From: a virus
Taxonomy: Duplodnaviria; Caudoviricetes
DNA: 64,000 bases
Strand: one strand, 5' to 3'
IMG/VR virus record: IMGVR_UViG_3300047625_000012
Span: 183 to 64,182 of that record
Shown here piece after piece: positions 32,918 through 59,668 of the stretch (the stretch's first letter is position 1; every line of letters starts with the position of its first letter). Made by a program: the position numbers and the translations under genes. The notes under the pieces were generated by a model. It was not told where the DNA came from. It ran no database searches and saw only the letters and a list, made by a program, of their open reading frames with translations.

Positions 32918-33068
32918 TTCGCGCTCTCCTGAAGGAAAGCGCGCCTGCACATCAGTCGCGGCACACTAGCGGAGCAGAATACCCCGCCGCGGGTCAGCCT
33001 AGCGGCTTGAACTGCGCGTTACAAGGGGTAAGACATCCTTGTCTATCCGCGGAGTCCTTACCCGAAGT

Positions 33069-55010: not shown

Positions 55011-55219
55011 GTGCTCTCGTCCACGGTCGGCACATCGCGCCACTCAACCGGGCGATCGAACGACATGCCCGGCTCGGACCGGAAATGCTCTTCCCAACGC
55101 TGCTGTAGTACCCACACGGTCGGACCTCTCCCGCTACCCGGGTCCTGCGAGTCATCCGTGCGGATCAACCAACGCAGTTGAGCCGTACACACCCACCAGC
55201 TGCGCTCATCGTCACTCAT
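55007..55219 (-). CDS. Hypothetical protein
   Basis: LRW...VLQQ.W...EWRDVP conserved phage motif. Confidence 0.7.
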   Translation of the reverse strand: MSDDERSWWVCTAQLRWLIRTDDSQDPGSGRGPTVWVLQQRWEEHFRSEPGMSFDRPVEWRDVPTVDEST

Positions 55220-55842
55220 CGTTCCCGCGGCTCCTCGGTTCGTCCTGACGGTTTCGTCTTGCCGTCAGCCTTTGGAGAAACTAACTTTACGATCGAATCA
55301 ATCAGCGCGTTGCGCTCCTCCACCTTGACGGCCAGGCCGTCAGGCGTGCGCAGGTCAACTTCACTGCGTTCACCGTAGACCGCACGCAGCACCTTCTGCG
55401 CCATCCATTTGCGCGACTCAACACGCAGCCTGGAGCGCTCGAAGTGCTCGCGGTCAAACACCCGCAGGACGCCTTTCTTCGTCACCCGGTTGACGTAGTC
55501 ATTGGTCGCGTTGTCCGCGATCGTGACGATGTCGCCGACCATGTGCTCGCAGCAGCTCTCCCACGCGATCCGGAAGCGTTTCTCGAAGTCCTCGTTCTGT
55601 CGTCGCCAGCGCCCCAGCACGCGCCAGGTGGGCATGCCCGGGTCATCACGGCAGATCTGCGTAGGAGGCTCCCCGTCTGCTACCCGGTCGAGCAACGCCT
55701 CAGCTACGTCTTTCGAGAACGTGCGCGGGCGTACGGCGGGCGGCGGTTCGGGCGCCTTCGGGCGATCTACCTTGCGGAGCTTGCGGACAACACGTTTCGG
55801 ACCTCGTCTGCGCTTTTTCGTGATCTTGCGTGCGGGAGCCAA
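55216..55842 (-). CDS. terS: Terminase small subunit (Sf6/P22-like)
   Basis: F....A..L...VADGE....ICRD..MP....W; IAD; RSRLRVESRKW...YG; TTG start. Confidence 0.85.
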   Translation of the reverse strand: MAPARKITKKRRRGPKRVVRKLRKVDRPKAPEPPPAVRPRTFSKDVAEALLDRVADGEPPTQICRDDPGMPTWRVLGRWRRQNEDFEKRFRIAWESCCEHMVGDIVTIADNATNDYVNRVTKKGVLRVFDREHFERSRLRVESRKWMAQKVLRAVYGERSEVDLRTPDGLAVKVEERNALIDSIVKLVSPKADGKTKPSGRTEEPRER

Positions 55843-56222
55843 TACGCGCCCCTACGGTTAAACGTCGCGGAAGGTACCACGGTCAAGCTGAGGTGTAAAG
55901 GCGGGGCGCGGGTTCCGCTTGCCCGGATACCGGGTGCGCCTGCCCGCACGGTTCACGCAGGCTGCAGTCACGTTCACCGCATTGCCGCGTATAGCCCCTT
56001 CAAACAAAGCAAGGAGGTTTTCCGGACCCCCAGGCAAACCGGGCCGTAACTTTGTCCAACGCCACGGCTCGGGCGATACGGCCTTCCTTCGATCGAATAC
56101 GCATCAGGAGAGGATCAGGTTGTCCAGCGTCCCGATCCTGATACACGGGCAGACCAGCCGCTGGCGCCGGTAGCCGAGCCGTGCCCCGCGTCAGTTCGCG
56201 GGTCTCCCCCGATACATACTCG

Positions 56223-56305
56223 AAAAAGGGCGGCACTCTCCCCGACTGAGCTAATCAGGCAGCGTTGCGCCTGATGTTGGATTTGAACCAGCGACCTCCC
56301 GCCTG
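56223..56305 (-). ncRNA. Circularly permuted tRNA-like RNA (T-arm, closed acceptor stem, D-arm; no anticodon loop)
   Basis: AGGCGG-GAGGTC-GCTGG-TTCAAAT-CCAAC-ATCAGGC-GCAACGCT-GCCTGAT-TA-GCTC-AGTCGGGGA-GAGT-G-CCGCC-CTTTTT. Confidence 0.8.
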
Positions 56306-56311
56306 AGCGTG

Positions 56312-56340
56312 ATCCTAATTCAGGTCCGGTTGTCTTTCAA
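56312..56340 (-). promoter_or_regulatory. Sigma70-type promoter for the tRNA-like RNA and/or late leader
   Basis: TTGAAA (56340-56335) -N17- TAGGAT (56317-56312); predicted +1 at about 56304-56305. Confidence 0.65.
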
Positions 56341-56547
56341 CTGCCGGCACCATTTGCGGAAGCGTTCCGACTGGCGCGGGTCAGGCCCCATGGTGTAGCG
56401 CTGATACCCGGCGCGTTTCAACACCCTGGCCCAGCCGTCCGCGAGCGGCCCGTCGACGCACACGACATAGGGCGAGTTTGACAGTGACACGCCGTTGACC
56501 TCGATGAGGACGCCGGGAGTATGGATGAAAGTACGGTGAGCGGGCAT
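56320..56547 (-). CDS. Hypothetical protein
   Basis: AGGAGG RBS before ATG56547. Confidence 0.65.
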   Translation of the reverse strand: MPAHRTFIHTPGVLIEVNGVSLSNSPYVVCVDGPLADGWARVLKRAGYQRYTMGPDPRQSERFRKWCRQLKDNRT

Positions 56548-56548
56548 A

Positions 56549-56833
56549 TCAGCGCCTCCTGTAAGGGTCGAAGTAGTCCGACAGGATACTGACATTGCCT
56601 GACGGCAGAGGCGTAGCGCTATTTAGCGAATTATGTGCCGCCCATGCGTCGCATTGCTGGCGGTAGGTCATCGGCGCCCCCTTCGCCCGCAGAAATCCCT
56701 GCCGCATCTCCCACCAGGTGCGCTCTTTATTGCCCCGGGCATCCTGGAATACCGCACCGGACATCCTGCGCCCGATCCAGGCATCGAGCAGCGCCCGGTT
56801 GGTCTGTGACAATTCGGTATCAATGTATTTCAT
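56549..56833 (-). CDS. Hypothetical protein
   Basis: ATGA overlap, GGAG RBS. Confidence 0.55.
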   Translation of the reverse strand: MKYIDTELSQTNRALLDAWIGRRMSGAVFQDARGNKERTWWEMRQGFLRAKGAPMTYRQQCDAWAAHNSLNSATPLPSGNVSILSDYFDPYRRR

Positions 56834-57204
56834 GGCTGCTTCTCCGGAGACCCGTCGATCGCTTTATCCAACAGTTCGCCGCTGTAGGTCTGCACCCCGA
56901 CATTCACGGTGAATGTGTCGACCACACAGAGCTGCGTATCGGTCCAGTGCATCGCACGCAGTTTGCGGTAGCGTTCCGCATCTTTTCTCAGCCGCTTGAA
57001 CTCGTTCATGCCGTCCGTGGCGGTAACGGTGGAGAACAGCTCATTGAGCTTCTCTTCGAGACAGCGCTCCAGTGTATCGAGTCGATCGTCCAGGGTTATT
57101 TCCGGCATGTCAGTTACCTTCAGTTGATAAGAATCCCCGAAAAGCTGCGTTCTCAGGTACCAGTCCACCACGTCTGCTTTACCACTCATGTTGGGTTTCT
57201 CCAC
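56830..57204 (-). CDS. Hypothetical protein (Ead/Ea22-like LRKDAERYR motif)
   Basis: RLRKDAERYRKLR...LDKAID. Confidence 0.65.
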   Translation of the reverse strand: MEKPNMSGKADVVDWYLRTQLFGDSYQLKVTDMPEITLDDRLDTLERCLEEKLNELFSTVTATDGMNEFKRLRKDAERYRKLRAMHWTDTQLCVVDTFTVNVGVQTYSGELLDKAIDGSPEKQP

Positions 57205-57518: not shown

Positions 57519-57672
57519 CGCGCGCACGCGCGTACATATGGGACTACATATACATATACATACATATCACTACACATTAGGGGTTGTATAGAGGAATGTG
57601 TAGTGATGTGTAGTGGGGGGTATATAGGGACCCAATGTAGGCTTGTGTAGTAATATGTAGCGATGTGTAGTC
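57519..57672. repeat. Putative replication origin: decamer repeats WTRTGTAGYV
   Basis: ATGTGTAGTG x2 (57596-57615), TTGTGTAGTA-ATATGTAGCG-ATGTGTAGTC (57643-57672), inverted copies at 57542 and 57568, TACATA run; non-coding, directly after primase-helicase. Confidence 0.65.
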
Positions 57673-59668
57673 ATGTCAACCGCCGCAGTTTCCGCTTAGC
57701 GTTAAAGGTGTTCATTTTCTCCAGCATGATGCCGCCGGTACGCCCTTTGCGCGTCAGAATCCTGTACCCGTTCCATTGAGTACGTCCCTCTTTCATCATC
57801 TTCGCAATCGACTTGCGCACGCTGACATGATGTTTGCCCATCGACTTCGCCAGGTCATGCGCCGAAACGAATTCCCCCAACCCGACATCTCCCTCCTCGA
57901 TCCACTCCTTGAGTTCGGTAAGCAGCTCCTGTTCCGCCAGCGTCTGTTGCATCTGGAAATACACCCCCTCATTGATGAACCGTACCCCTGACCGGTTCAG
58001 AATCAACAGTACATCCTCTTCCACATCCCGCCCCCGCACCCCGAACAGCCTGCGGTGCTCATTCGGGTCAAGCCGGTCCGCATCGGGCAGGTCACCCAGC
58101 ACGATCGAGCCGGATACCCCTGCAAGGGCGGTGTTGGTACGATTGATGATCTCGTGAACATCGAAGCTCTCTCCGACCTTCGCCTTGTTCTTGGAGGCAT
58201 GGTTGGATAACAGAATCGCACACCCGTGACGCAGCGCTATCTGATCAAACTTTGAAGTCTGCTCGTAATCCACCACCGTGAGCCGGCTGGAGCGCTGCTC
58301 CGGGAGCTGCTTCGTTTTCCAGACAAACCGTGTTACCTCTTCTGTATCCAGCACAACGATCTTGTACCGCGGGTTGGCCGTGAGGTACGCATCCAGAAAA
58401 GCCGGGAAGTCTCCCTGGTCTGCATGTTTCTGCGCCAGTTCCAGAAAACGCTCACGGTTCAACGTGTGGATCGATGCAGGCATATCCCCGTACTCATCGG
58501 CGCGATTCTTCAAGCGCGCGTCATCATCCTCCGCGAACACCGCAAGAATCTTCTCATCCTCACCCAACCGCGTCTCGAAGTTGAGAAACCGCTTGCCGCG
58601 ACCCAGCTGGATCAGCAGCTGCAGCAGCAACCAGCTTTTACCGACCTTGGGGCGGCCCACTACGAGCCATGCGCCGGGATACAACCACTCCCCCACCCAG
58701 CAGGTTTTCGCCTTCAAACGCTTCTTCTGGATCTTCGCCAGCGGCTCGAAGGTGAGCCCCTCGAAAGAATCGGGGTTGAAACCCGCGGGCTTTTTTTCCC
58801 CCTCATCCGTCTTCAGGTGCGCTTTCTTGCGTGCGATATACAGCACCTTGTGTTTGCCATCCGTCTCCTGATACGGGGGTACACAGTGCTCCAGGTCATA
58901 CTTCAGCAGGGCCGCCCCTAACTCCTGAGTCGACATCCCCATGCGATGGTAGTAATACGCCCGCCGCGCAAGGGCTGCATTACGTTCCCCGTCCCGGAAC
59001 CTGCGCTCATCCCGGCTGTCAGACGGCTCGGTATCCCGGTTGAGTCTGTGCGCGCCCGGTTTGGTGGGAGACGCACACTTTCTCTCAAGCCACCCGGGCA
59101 GCTCCCCCGGACTGCCCACCGGGTGCGCCCCGTGTGCGGCCCACCAGATGATGTAGCCCCCCTCACCGCGCACGTCGACCCCGGGAGCGACCACACCGGC
59201 ACTGTTGCCGATCGCCTGCCCGTTCATGCGGTACAGGAGGTGCTTGCCGCGTCGGGTCTGATGCGTCCGGTGGACGCCCAGGCGTTCACGGTGCTCCCGG
59301 TACCAATCCACCCCTTCCGGGTCCACGTCAATGACTACCAGGCCGCTGGCTGAGCCCGTAGGCACCCCGATCAGGGCTTCCGGGTACCTGCGCCACCACC
59401 TGGCCACCCGGGACGGCTCCCGGGACGCCTCCTTGAACCCGTGCTTCGTAAGCGGCCGCTTACTGACCCCGTCACAGGGGAATACGGGGTAGTCCTGAGC
59501 GACCCGCAGCGCGTTGCGCTGGGCCGCCGTCAGCTCCTCCCCGTTGACATCGAAACGATCGTGTGATTGACGCCCTACCCGTTCATCGGATATTTTTCGC
59601 ATGTTCGCTCGCGTTCGTGTCAGACCCAGGGAACCCCGCTGTGGTAGTCGCTCACCGCAGTGGGTCAT
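57671..59668 (-). CDS. Bifunctional primase-polymerase (Prim-Pol) fused to AAA_25/RepA-like helicase
   Basis: PVFPC...KRPL..HGF..AS, IGVPTG..SGLVVIDVD, GKHLLY, DVRGEGGYI; GERN; Walker A GRPKVGKS, VVLDT; start may be ATG59602. Confidence 0.9.
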   Translation of the reverse strand: MTHCGERLPQRGSLGLTRTRANMRKISDERVGRQSHDRFDVNGEELTAAQRNALRVAQDYPVFPCDGVSKRPLTKHGFKEASREPSRVARWWRRYPEALIGVPTGSASGLVVIDVDPEGVDWYREHRERLGVHRTHQTRRGKHLLYRMNGQAIGNSAGVVAPGVDVRGEGGYIIWWAAHGAHPVGSPGELPGWLERKCASPTKPGAHRLNRDTEPSDSRDERRFRDGERNAALARRAYYYHRMGMSTQELGAALLKYDLEHCVPPYQETDGKHKVLYIARKKAHLKTDEGEKKPAGFNPDSFEGLTFEPLAKIQKKRLKAKTCWVGEWLYPGAWLVVGRPKVGKSWLLLQLLIQLGRGKRFLNFETRLGEDEKILAVFAEDDDARLKNRADEYGDMPASIHTLNRERFLELAQKHADQGDFPAFLDAYLTANPRYKIVVLDTEEVTRFVWKTKQLPEQRSSRLTVVDYEQTSKFDQIALRHGCAILLSNHASKNKAKVGESFDVHEIINRTNTALAGVSGSIVLGDLPDADRLDPNEHRRLFGVRGRDVEEDVLLILNRSGVRFINEGVYFQMQQTLAEQELLTELKEWIEEGDVGLGEFVSAHDLAKSMGKHHVSVRKSIAKMMKEGRTQWNGYRILTRKGRTGGIMLEKMNTFNAKRKLRRLT

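What the first reader, a model, noticed from the sequence alone, without database searches (positions are those of the whole stretch)
56223..56340. Circularly permuted tRNA mimic with no anticodon loop, framed by a promoter and a U-tract
On the - strand the order is: GGCGG (anticodon-stem 3' strand), variable loop GAGGTC, T-arm GCTGG-TTCAAAT-CCAAC, acceptor 3' strand ATCAGGC, 8-nt loop GCAACGCT, acceptor 5' strand GCCTGAT (7/7 pairs), TA, D-arm GCTC-AGTCGGGGA-GAGT, G, CCGCC (5/5 pairs), CTTTTT. The 3' half of a tRNA therefore precedes the 5' half, the acceptor end is closed by a loop, and the free ends sit where the anticodon loop would be. A TTGAAA-N17-TAGGAT promoter places +1 at the first stem base and a U5 tract ends it (about 80 nt). 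From memory the sequence resembles gammaproteobacterial tRNA-Val(UAC). Established: this topology occurs in YrlA Y RNAs, which add a long Ro60-binding stem, and in permuted tRNA genes of some algae and archaea. No Ro60 gene is in the window and the transcript leaves no room for a Ro stem. Inference: an uncleavable decoy for anticodon nucleases or other tRNA-targeting toxins, a mimic of nicked tRNA engaging RtcR/RtcB, a precursor of a true permuted tRNA, or an attenuator for the terminase operon.
Basis: partly seen in the sequence, partly recalled or inferred. Interest (0 to 1): 0.9.

Follow-up and report, generated by a model that had tools for sequence, protein, structure and literature searches.

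The report
Partner-less phage tRNA-shaped small RNA
An uncultured soil phage and its few known relatives each carry one small RNA gene that folds like a tRNA with its parts in rotated order, a sealed acceptor end and no anticodon, yet they lack both proteins that usually accompany such RNAs, so its job is open.

Summary
On the - strand, 56303..56229 reads in permuted tRNA order, with 20 of 21 pairs formed. The best of 20,000 shuffles reached 17. ARAGORN calls the re-permuted halves a tRNA.

My covariance model found one copy each in three related phage records (G003, G009, G010). Across the four sequences 78 of 79 pair cells are paired and 7 of 21 pairs changed on both sides.

It is not a YrlA member. 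The Rfam score is 20 bits against a cut-off of 69. There is no GNCGAA motif, no phage "handle" motif and no basal stem. TROVE/Ro60 and DUF7873 were not found in G000 (94% complete) or in two complete relatives.

A -10-like hexamer lies 6-8 nt upstream of the first stem base in all four copies. The U5 tract and the 7-bp acceptor with its 8-nt loop occur only in the window.

Three copies lie just upstream of the small terminase gene. The fourth lies antisense inside the capsid module, which argues against a purely cis role.

Best reading: a self-contained, trans-acting tRNA-body mimic; its target is unknown. No RNA data were available. The scan has noted permuted tRNA mimics before, but those had protein partners.

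The parts
56335..56340 (-). -35-like hexamer TTGAAA
   Evidence: With TAGGAT it is the only sigma-70-like site in 55700-56900.
56312..56317 (-). -10-like hexamer TAGGAT, 8 nt upstream of the first stem base
   Evidence: A TAnnnT hexamer lies 6-8 nt upstream of the stem in all four family members.
56299..56303 (-). GGCGG, the 5' strand of the closing helix (equivalent to the 3' strand of a tRNA anticodon stem) and the probable RNA 5' end
   Evidence: Pairs 5 of 5 with 56233-56229. In relatives the pairs become G-C to A-U (G003) and two G.U (L271).
56293..56298 (-). Variable-loop equivalent GAGGTC
   Evidence: (G)AGGTC is kept in all four members.
56276..56292 (-). T-arm: GCTGG, TTCAAAT, CCAAC (one C.A mismatch)
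   Evidence: The third pair is U-A here and C-G in relatives.
56254..56275 (-). Acceptor-like arm sealed by a loop: ATCAGGC, GCAACGCT, GCCTGAT (7 of 7 pairs)
   Evidence: 5 of its 7 pairs are changed on both sides in relatives. The relatives' arms are 5-6 bp plus an inner hairpin.
56235..56253 (-). TA (positions 8-9 equivalent) and D-arm GCTC, AGTCGGGGA, GAGT (with a G.U pair)
56229..56234 (-). G plus CCGCC, the 3' strand of the closing helix
56223..56228 (-). C plus T5 tract: terminator-like tail found only in this phage
   Evidence: Relatives have TCTTCGCC or TCTACTTG instead.
55843..56222 (-). Probable non-coding leader between the element and the small terminase gene, with strong hairpins at 56146-56210. 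Whether it belongs to the same RNA is not known.
   Evidence: ORF78 and ORF59 lack the GC3 bias of real genes: 0.58-0.63 against 0.66-0.80. Hairpins. Only the last ~100 nt are shared with L065 and L067.

Best explanation
This is a real, conserved small RNA gene. It encodes a circularly permuted tRNA body of about 75-85 nt whose two ends pair where the anticodon stem would be. The T-arm and D-arm are canonical, and the acceptor-like arm is closed by a loop.

It is carried as a single copy by a small clade of ~60-kb soil podophages. These phages have PrimPol-helicase and an Sf6-type small terminase, and no tRNA genes were found in the window. It has its own start signal, a -10-like hexamer 6-8 nt before the first stem base.

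Inferred, not shown: the RNA folds into the L-shaped tRNA core and acts in trans. It would occupy a host factor that recognises the tRNA elbow or body. It cannot be decoded, because it has no anticodon loop. It cannot be charged, because its acceptor end is sealed. In other words it would be a non-consumable tRNA decoy or sponge, for example against a tRNA-targeting defence nuclease or a tRNA-processing or tRNA-binding protein.

It works without the two protein partners seen with similar RNAs, Ro60/TROVE and DUF7873.
For: Fold and non-randomness:
- 20 of 21 pairs form; the best of 20,000 shuffles reached 17.
- ARAGORN calls the re-permuted construct a tRNA.
- Rfam YrlA aligns to the tRNA-like core only.

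Conservation:
- Model R1 finds one copy each in G003 (36.5 bits), G010 (43.4 bits) and G009 (48.7 bits).
- ARAGORN reports no tRNA over these copies.
- TerS identity to the window is 58-73%. PrimPol N-terminal identity is 54%.

Covariation on the four sequences:
- 78 of 79 cells are paired and 7 of 21 pairs are changed on both sides.
- 0 of 500 shuffles reach this.
- Slid controls are 27-58% paired.
- G.U pairs in L271 and in the window's D stem point to an RNA on this strand.
- Unconstrained MFE folding gives the four-way fold for L267 and G003.

Own transcription unit:
- TTGAAA-17-TAGGAT is the only promoter-like site in 1.2 kb.
- TAnnnT lies 6-8 nt upstream of the stem in all four.
- In G009 and G010 an intrinsic terminator of the preceding gene sits directly before the -10-like hexamer.

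Acts independently of its neighbours:
- The G003 copy lies on the opposite strand, between the 374-aa gene and the 257-aa structural gene. The 374-aa protein is 84% identical to the window's.
- The window's syntenic gap has no copy.

No known partner:
- TROVE is not found in G000, G003, G009 or G010.
- DUF7873 is not found in the same four. The positive control G011 has it next to its own element.
- Pfam over 75 ORFs of the window shows no TROVE, DUF7873, RtcB or integrase.
Against: - No RNA data exist. No listed run is RNA, so transcription, RNA ends and abundance are all unshown.
- The family has only four distinct sequences from five records, and alignment A8 was fitted to the model's structure.
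- The window's own MFE is an alternative hairpin about as stable as the cloverleaf: -25.0 against -25.3 kcal/mol.
- Three of four copies sit directly upstream of TerS on the same strand. In G009 and G010 only 68 nt separate them. That fits a cis role as well.
- Neither the -35 box nor the U tract is conserved.
- No target protein is identified, and the host is unknown.
- Model R1 also scores junctions of adjacent tRNA genes highly: 50.6 bits for a tRNA-Ala pair. Score alone therefore does not define membership.
Confidence: 0.42

Rival explanations
1. It is a cis-acting 5' leader of the late (terminase/structural) operon. The tRNA-like fold would sit at the very 5' end of the late mRNA. There it would stabilise the message, serve as a processing site, or modify RNA polymerase (attenuation or antitermination). 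In this phage the U5 tract would act as an attenuator.
For: - The window, G009 and G010 all have the element upstream of TerS on the same strand.
- In G009 and G010 the order is upstream-gene terminator, -10-like hexamer, element, 68 nt, TerS. The TerS message would then have to begin with the element.
- No other sigma-70-like site lies between the element and TerS in the window.
- The stem starts at the predicted +1, as 5'-terminal stabiliser hairpins do (recalled general knowledge).
Against: - G003 is a 100%-complete record with 71-73% TerS identity. It has no element upstream of TerS.
- G003 carries its only copy antisense in the capsid module.
- The distance to TerS is 386 nt in the window against 68 nt in G009 and G010.
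- The U5 tract is unique to the window.
- A stabiliser or attenuator would not need intact T- and D-loops.
Confidence: 0.25
2. It is a Y RNA of the YrlA class that works with the Ro60/Rsr protein of the unknown host, rather than with a phage-encoded Ro60.
For: - Rfam YrlA is the only plausible family match.
- The best non-junction BLAST hit is a Y RNA about 840 nt upstream of a TROVE gene in Rhizobium phage RHph_Y65.
- R1 recovers Ro-linked Y RNAs of phages Tenjo, RHph_Y65, RHph_TM30 and L055 at 40-44 bits.
Against: - Only the tRNA-like core matches: 20.1 bits against a 69-bit cut-off.
- No GNCGAA motif lies on the - strand within about 380 nt upstream.
- The RGTTACTTC 'handle' shared by the Ro-linked phage RNAs is not near the element in the window.
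- Flank pairing is no better than with shuffled flanks.
- The predicted +1 leaves no 5' extension.
- TROVE is not found in the three near-complete or complete phage genomes.
Confidence: 0.1
3. It is a non-functional relic or a selfish tRNA-derived insert. It would be the junction of two tandem tRNA genes, or a decayed Y RNA, moved around by recombination.
For: - Full-length BLAST matches are mostly junctions of adjacent tRNA genes, such as P1 tRNA-Thr|tRNA-Asn.
- The window's T stem has a C.A mismatch.
- The position differs between close relatives.
Against: - Compensatory changes occur in 7 of 21 pairs, and 78 of 79 cells are paired.
- Exactly one copy is kept in each of G003, G009 and G010 and in the window, although their proteins have diverged to 54-73% identity.
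- The acceptor strands are mutually complementary in every member, unlike tRNA junctions.
- No tRNA genes or integrase were found in the window.
Confidence: 0.1
4. It is a precursor that is processed into a functional or split tRNA. RNase P would cut 5' of G56260 and CCA would be added, as in M. smegmatis YrlA. Alternatively, ligation of the ends would create an anticodon loop.
For: - The window's arm is 7 bp stacked on a 5-bp T stem.
- Passages of PMC4201824 report that M. smegmatis YrlA, the one with a 7-bp 'acceptor stem', is cut by RNase P in vitro and in vivo and then gains CCA.
- ARAGORN accepts the re-permuted construct.
Against: - The relatives have 5-6-bp arms continued by an inner hairpin, so the 7+5-bp geometry is not conserved.
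- No CCA is encoded after the 3' strand.
- The 3' tails differ (CTTTTTCG, TCTTCGCC, TCTACTTG), so no conserved anticodon loop could arise.
- No RNA ligase was found among the window's 75 ORFs.
Confidence: 0.05

Closest known systems
YrlA (Y RNA-like A; Rfam RF02553; Chen et al. 2014, PMC4201824, passages read)
   Same: The order of parts in the tRNA-like module is the same: variable region, T-arm, loop-closed 'acceptor' stem, then D-arm. The conserved T- and D-loop nucleotides are also shared. YrlA too occurs in phages.
   Different: There is no Ro60-binding module: no GNCGAA motif, no long basal stem, no handle. No TROVE gene was found anywhere in the phage record. The score is 20 bits against a gathering score of 69. 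The ends pair directly as a 5-bp anticodon-stem equivalent.
Ro-linked phage Y RNAs seen here: Xanthomonas phage Tenjo, Rhizobium phages RHph_Y65 and RHph_TM30, and IMG/VR locus L055
   Same: The tRNA-like core is the same. R1 scores them at 40-44 bits, and identity to RHph_Y65 is 75%.
   Different: Those RNAs carry the RGTTACTTC handle 15-25 nt upstream of the T-arm. They lie next to, or in the same record as, a TROVE/vWA Ro60 gene. The window's element has neither feature.
DUF7873-associated two-headed tRNA-mimic RNAs
   Same: They also contain permuted, loop-capped tRNA-like modules whose closing stem is made by the ends. One example was confirmed here: L276 lies next to a DUF7873 gene.
   Different: This element has one module, not two. 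It is about 80 nt long, not ~360. No DUF7873 gene was found in G000, G003, G009 or G010.
Permuted tRNA genes of the red alga Cyanidioschyzon merolae and some archaea (recalled, not checked in a paper here)
   Same: The 3' half of the tRNA is encoded before the 5' half, with a linker joining the acceptor strands.
   Different: Those genes encode a complete anticodon loop split between the two ends, and they mature into decoding tRNAs. Here no anticodon loop exists and the tails are not conserved.
Promoter-proximal structured leader RNAs of phage late or early operons, such as lambda 6S RNA and HK022 put RNA (recalled)
   Same: A folded RNA starts at +1 of a promoter that precedes a long operon, and in the window it is followed by a U tract.
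   Different: Those RNAs are not tRNA-like and act only in cis. The G003 copy is antisense to its neighbours.

Membership tests
YrlA / bacterial Y RNA (RF02553) | tRNA-like module with a T-arm, a closed acceptor-like stem and a D-arm | tested here: met
   One search aligns model positions 24-84; 20 of 21 pairs form.
YrlA / bacterial Y RNA (RF02553) | Reaches Rfam's gathering score over the full model | tested here: not met
   No match at gathering threshold. 20.1 bits against 69, core only.
YrlA / bacterial Y RNA (RF02553) | GNCGAAN0-1G motif near the 5' end (Ro60 contact; PMC4201824) | tested here: not met
   the nearest - strand match upstream is at 56682-56687, inside a coding region.
YrlA / bacterial Y RNA (RF02553) | Encoded within about 4 kb of a Ro60/TROVE gene on the same strand | tested here: not met
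   No TROVE match in the 64,182-b record, which is 94% complete. No DUF2828 either.
YrlA / bacterial Y RNA (RF02553) | Bound by Ro60/Rsr | not testable with these tools
   Needs immunoprecipitation; the host is unknown.
Handle-type phage Y RNAs (Tenjo and RHph_Y65 type) | RGTTACTTC handle upstream of the T-arm | tested here: not met
   no match on the - strand near the element.
DUF7873-associated tRNA-mimic RNA | Adjacent DUF7873 gene and two tRNA-like modules | tested here: not met
   no DUF7873 found; a single module in the window. Positive control in G011.
Canonical tRNA gene | Contiguous cloverleaf with an anticodon loop | tested here: not met
   ARAGORN finds 0 tRNA genes. No Rfam tRNA match.
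Permuted tRNA gene (decoding) | Both halves plus a complete, conserved anticodon loop split between the ends | tested here: not met
   The ends pair directly. The 3' tails differ among the four members. The ARAGORN call on the construct takes its 'anticodon' from the U tract.
Self-contained transcription unit (moron-like) | Own promoter | tested here: inconclusive
   A consensus match is present, and a -10-like hexamer lies at 6-8 nt in all four members. There are no RNA data.
Self-contained transcription unit (moron-like) | Own intrinsic terminator | tested here: inconclusive
   A U5 tract follows the closing stem in the window. It is not present in G003, G009 or G010.

The most novel reading that the evidence does not exclude
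Phages make a free-standing, partner-less tRNA-body mimic. It would be a Y-RNA-like module stripped of its Ro60 handle. Lacking an anticodon loop and a free acceptor end, it cannot be cleaved or charged, so it could act as a decoy. It would blunt tRNA-targeting host immunity or capture a host tRNA-binding machine. This would make it a separate, protein-independent class of viral tRNA mimicry. Similar orphan modules in two other complete IMG/VR records (G013, G014) hint that the class is wider.
Probability: 0.2. Interest if true: 0.8.

Novelty: new variant of a known kind. Interest (0 to 1): 0.55.

Why it matters
In the one primary YrlA paper I read in passages (PMC4201824), permuted tRNA-like RNAs are partners of Ro60. 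Earlier notes of this scan add a second partner, DUF7873. Here a conserved member of this design is kept by a phage clade that has neither protein. The tRNA-shaped module therefore seems to have a use of its own.

If it is a decoy or sponge, it would be a new RNA-based way for phages to deal with tRNA-directed defences or with host tRNA machinery. It would also help explain what the tRNA-like half of Y RNAs is for, which the YrlA paper left open (PMC4201824, 'Functional implications' passages).

The element is short and self-contained. It can be tested by ordinary expression in laboratory strains.

Tried and rejected
Tried without result:
- Rfam at gathering threshold gave nothing on the window or on the own genome for YrlA.
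- BLAST of the 3-kb neighbourhood against GenBank phages found no match.
- Exact-pattern scans for close copies found nothing useful. The D-arm 18-mer had 0 hits in viral contigs. The T-arm-to-D-arm pattern had 0 in metagenome contigs. The D-arm 18-mer gave 6 metagenome hits and the T-arm/acceptor 21-mer gave 1 genome hit; none was a permuted element and ARAGORN called no tRNA in any of them. L072 and L075 carry a T-arm further downstream and may be odd or intron-bearing tRNAs.
- Pattern one search gave one hit, which was adjacent tRNAs.
- The ORF just upstream (91 aa) has no homologue other than itself.
- The 54 PrimPol-related loci have no element within the fetched flanks.
- Sequencing runs: no RNA holder was listed. 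The two DNA runs laid were contigs only. One may be the source sample. The other covers only part of TerS. Neither says anything about expression.
- The review PMC10870794 is not held.
- Supplementary tables of PMC4201824 (lists of phage YrlA RNAs) could not be seen. They might include Ro-linked relatives of this element.

Considered and rejected:
- attP or a tRNA integration site. No integrase was found among the 75 ORFs, and both tRNA halves are present.
- A second module, or a larger two-headed RNA.
- ORF78 (56000-56236) as a real gene overlapping the element; it has no GC3 bias.
- A basal Ro-type stem. The flank-pairing gain is -5.8 kcal/mol against a shuffled mean of -7.9.
- L040 and L041 as permuted elements; they are tRNA neighbours.

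Caveats:
- Model R1 was built from the window sequence alone (entered twice). It also scores tRNA-tRNA junctions highly. I therefore accepted hits only after an ARAGORN check and inspection.
- Counts of 'permuted' loci rest on my reading of script output. I judged 2 of 64 loci permuted; 13 of 19 loci had no overlapping tRNA call.
- Not-in-print statements rest on searches only.

Full report
THE OBSERVATION

The order is TTGAAA, 17 nt, TAGGAT, 8 nt, then a 75-nt core at 56303..56229. The core runs: closing-stem strand GGCGG, GAGGTC, a T-arm, a 7-bp acceptor-like helix closed by an 8-nt loop, TA, a D-arm, G, and closing-stem strand CCGCC. A C and five T follow.

In 20,000 shuffles of the same letters the named structure gave a mean of 8.2 pairs and never more than 17. 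The cloverleaf-type fold (-25.3 kcal/mol) and the predicted MFE, an alternative hairpin (-25.0), are about equally stable.

ARAGORN finds no tRNA in the window, and Rfam finds nothing at gathering thresholds. I placed the 5' half, with its native next 7 nt, in front of the 3' half inside a script. ARAGORN then called a 76-base tRNA. Its 'anticodon' is merely the U tract.

SURROUNDINGS

The window is nearly the whole of a 64,182-base IMG/VR virus record that is 94% complete. Earlier notes of this scan call it a soil phage. It encodes family A DNA polymerase, PrimPol-helicase, an Sf6-type small terminase, a T4-type large terminase and other phage proteins. Pfam over 75 ORFs showed no integrase, tRNA ligase, TROVE or DUF7873.

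The element lies between the replication genes and the small terminase gene. PrimPol-helicase is at 57671-59668 and is followed by small ORFs. The small terminase gene is at 55216-55842. All are on the - strand. The 386 nt between the element and TerS look non-coding, because the ORFs there lack the GC3 bias of the real genes. This stretch holds strong hairpins.

The promoter-like site is the only one in 1.2 kb. It is one of 7 on the - strand of the window. T5-or-longer runs number 39 on that strand.

RELATION TO KNOWN FAMILIES

A permissive Rfam scan gives YrlA as the only sensible match, but only for model positions 24-84, the tRNA-like module, at 20.1 bits against a cut-off of 69.

BLAST against GenBank phages mostly finds junctions of adjacent tRNA genes. 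The best other hit (75% identity) is an unannotated stretch of Rhizobium phage RHph_Y65 that lies about 840 nt upstream of a TROVE gene. Rfam scores it as YrlA over the full model, at 34.3 bits, which is below the gathering score.

Xanthomonas phage Tenjo carries an array of such RNAs directly before a TROVE-vWA gene. The Ro-linked RNAs I examined are Tenjo, RHph_Y65, RHph_TM30 and IMG/VR locus L055, whose record also has a TROVE gene. All share a handle, RGTTACTTC, upstream of the T-arm.

The window's element has no such handle nearby. It has no GNCGAA motif within about 380 nt upstream; passages of PMC4201824 name that motif as the likely Ro60 contact. Its flank pairing is no better than that of shuffled flanks. 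TROVE, DUF2828 and DUF7873 are not found in the record. So it works like the tRNA-like half of a Y RNA, but it fails the defining tests of YrlA membership.

HOMOLOGUES

The first attempts failed. The three TerS relatives lack the element upstream of TerS. Exact patterns found nothing useful.

A covariance model built from the window core alone then gave a 36.5-bit match elsewhere in the closest relative, G003 (60,653 b, complete). ARAGORN sees no tRNA there.

A pattern taken from what the two copies share brought in two more records, G009 and G010. In these the element sits where it does in the window. The order is PrimPol-AAA_25, a ribbon-helix-helix gene, a small gene with its terminator, a TATACT hexamer, the element, 68 nt, then Sf6-type TerS.

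Each of G003, G009 and G010 has exactly one match, and so does the window. A profile search shows that only five IMG/VR contigs carry this TerS type. The two without a detected element are fragments: G004 (35% complete) and a 5.7-kb piece like G003.

TerS identity to the window is 58-73%. PrimPol N-terminal identity is 54%.

COVARIATION

On the model-fitted alignment of the four distinct sequences, 78 of 79 cells are standard pairs and 7 of 21 pairs show changes on both sides. None of 500 shuffles reaches these values. Sliding the partners by 1-3 columns drops pairing to 27-58%.

- The closing helix changes from G-C to A-U in G003 and to two G.U pairs in L271.
- The T stem changes from U-A to C-G.
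- Five of the seven acceptor pairs are replaced.

Unconstrained folding returns the four-way fold for L267 and G003. Four sequences are few, and the alignment leans towards the structure.

WHAT IS AND IS NOT CONSERVED

Conserved features:
- the closing helix
- (G)AGGTC
- the T-arm
- TA
- the D-arm
- a TAnnnT hexamer 6-8 nt upstream of the first stem base

Not conserved:
- the -35 box
- the U5 tract; relatives have TCTTCGCC or TCTACTTG
- the 7-bp-plus-8-nt acceptor geometry; relatives have 5-6 bp continued by an inner hairpin, and G003 has an 11-nt T loop

This weakens two ideas that rest on the window alone. One is RNase P cleavage followed by CCA addition, as reported for the 7-bp M. smegmatis YrlA (PMC4201824 passages). 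The other is a discrete terminator.

POSITION

In G003 the copy lies on the + strand, between two - strand structural genes. One of them is 84% identical to the window's 374-aa protein. The same gap in the window has the shared flanking sequence but no element.

So the element has moved or been exchanged between close relatives, and in G003 it cannot be a leader of TerS. I take this as the main argument for a trans-acting RNA with its own start. I give the cis-leader reading 0.25 because three of four copies do precede TerS.

MECHANISM

Shown:
- a conserved tRNA-core fold
- a single copy per genome
- neither known partner protein found

Inferred:
- transcription from the -10-like hexamer
- an L-shaped fold with T-loop/D-loop contacts
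- action in trans on a factor that reads the tRNA body

Which factor that is (a defence nuclease, RNase P, a modification enzyme, host Rsr-PNPase) is not known.

No RNA run holds the sequence, so expression is untested.

WIDER PICTURE AND NOVELTY

Earlier notes of this scan report many permuted tRNA mimics in phages. Those were paired with Ro60-like or DUF7873 proteins. I confirmed one DUF7873 pair (L276) and several TROVE pairs.

Among the ten other records checked, two carry DUF7873, and one of those two also carries TROVE. Two complete records (G013, G014) have neither. Orphan modules may therefore be a broader class.

I found no paper on DUF7873 or on partner-less phage tRNA-like RNAs in six searches.

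I rate this a new variant of a known kind: real and conserved, with function open.

Noticed in passing
window 55843-55960 (- strand); L065 3890-4000; L067 3890-4000; L267 and L271 just upstream of TerS: A conserved motif (GTGGTACCTTCCGCGA-like) lies about 30-50 nt before the small terminase start in all relatives, whether or not the tRNA-like element is present. It may be a regulatory or packaging-related site.
   Followed up: partly
window 56146-56210: A long GC-rich imperfect hairpin lies downstream of the element. It gave spurious miRNA-family hits on both strands. It is unique to this phage among the TerS relatives aligned.
   Followed up: no
L079 (Xanthomonas phage Tenjo) 2500-3160: An unannotated array of about four Y-RNA-like units lies directly upstream of a TROVE-vWA (Ro60) gene in a 43.8-kb phage. 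Each unit has the handle RGTTACTTC, and some have only a T-arm. After the handle comes a small hairpin with a 7-nt loop that looks like an anticodon arm.
   Followed up: partly
L260 1420-1500 against window 32960-33020 (+ strand): The flank of the G003 insertion, including a TTGAAC box, is conserved in the window, where no element is present. The -35-like box of the G003 copy therefore belongs to the recipient site and not to the element.
   Followed up: partly
L268 276-417 (record G014, 63,968 b, complete): Two tandem permuted tRNA-like modules (57.5 and 53.4 bits with R1) lie in a complete phage record that has neither TROVE nor DUF7873. The same element occurs beside an integrase gene in L273.
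   Followed up: partly
L080 2500-2610 (Erwinia phage Kaldavass, 366 kb): A permuted tRNA-like RNA with a handle-like CTAACTTC and a terminal stem lies inside the tRNA cluster of a jumbo phage. The Pfam TROVE model finds nothing in that phage.
   Followed up: partly
L195 5241-5312 (also L198, L223, L189): Another handle-less permuted module lies in a ~480-nt non-coding gap of a replication module (DNA polymerase A, clamp-loader-like ATPase, gp32-like). As in the window, it sits next to replication genes.
   Followed up: partly
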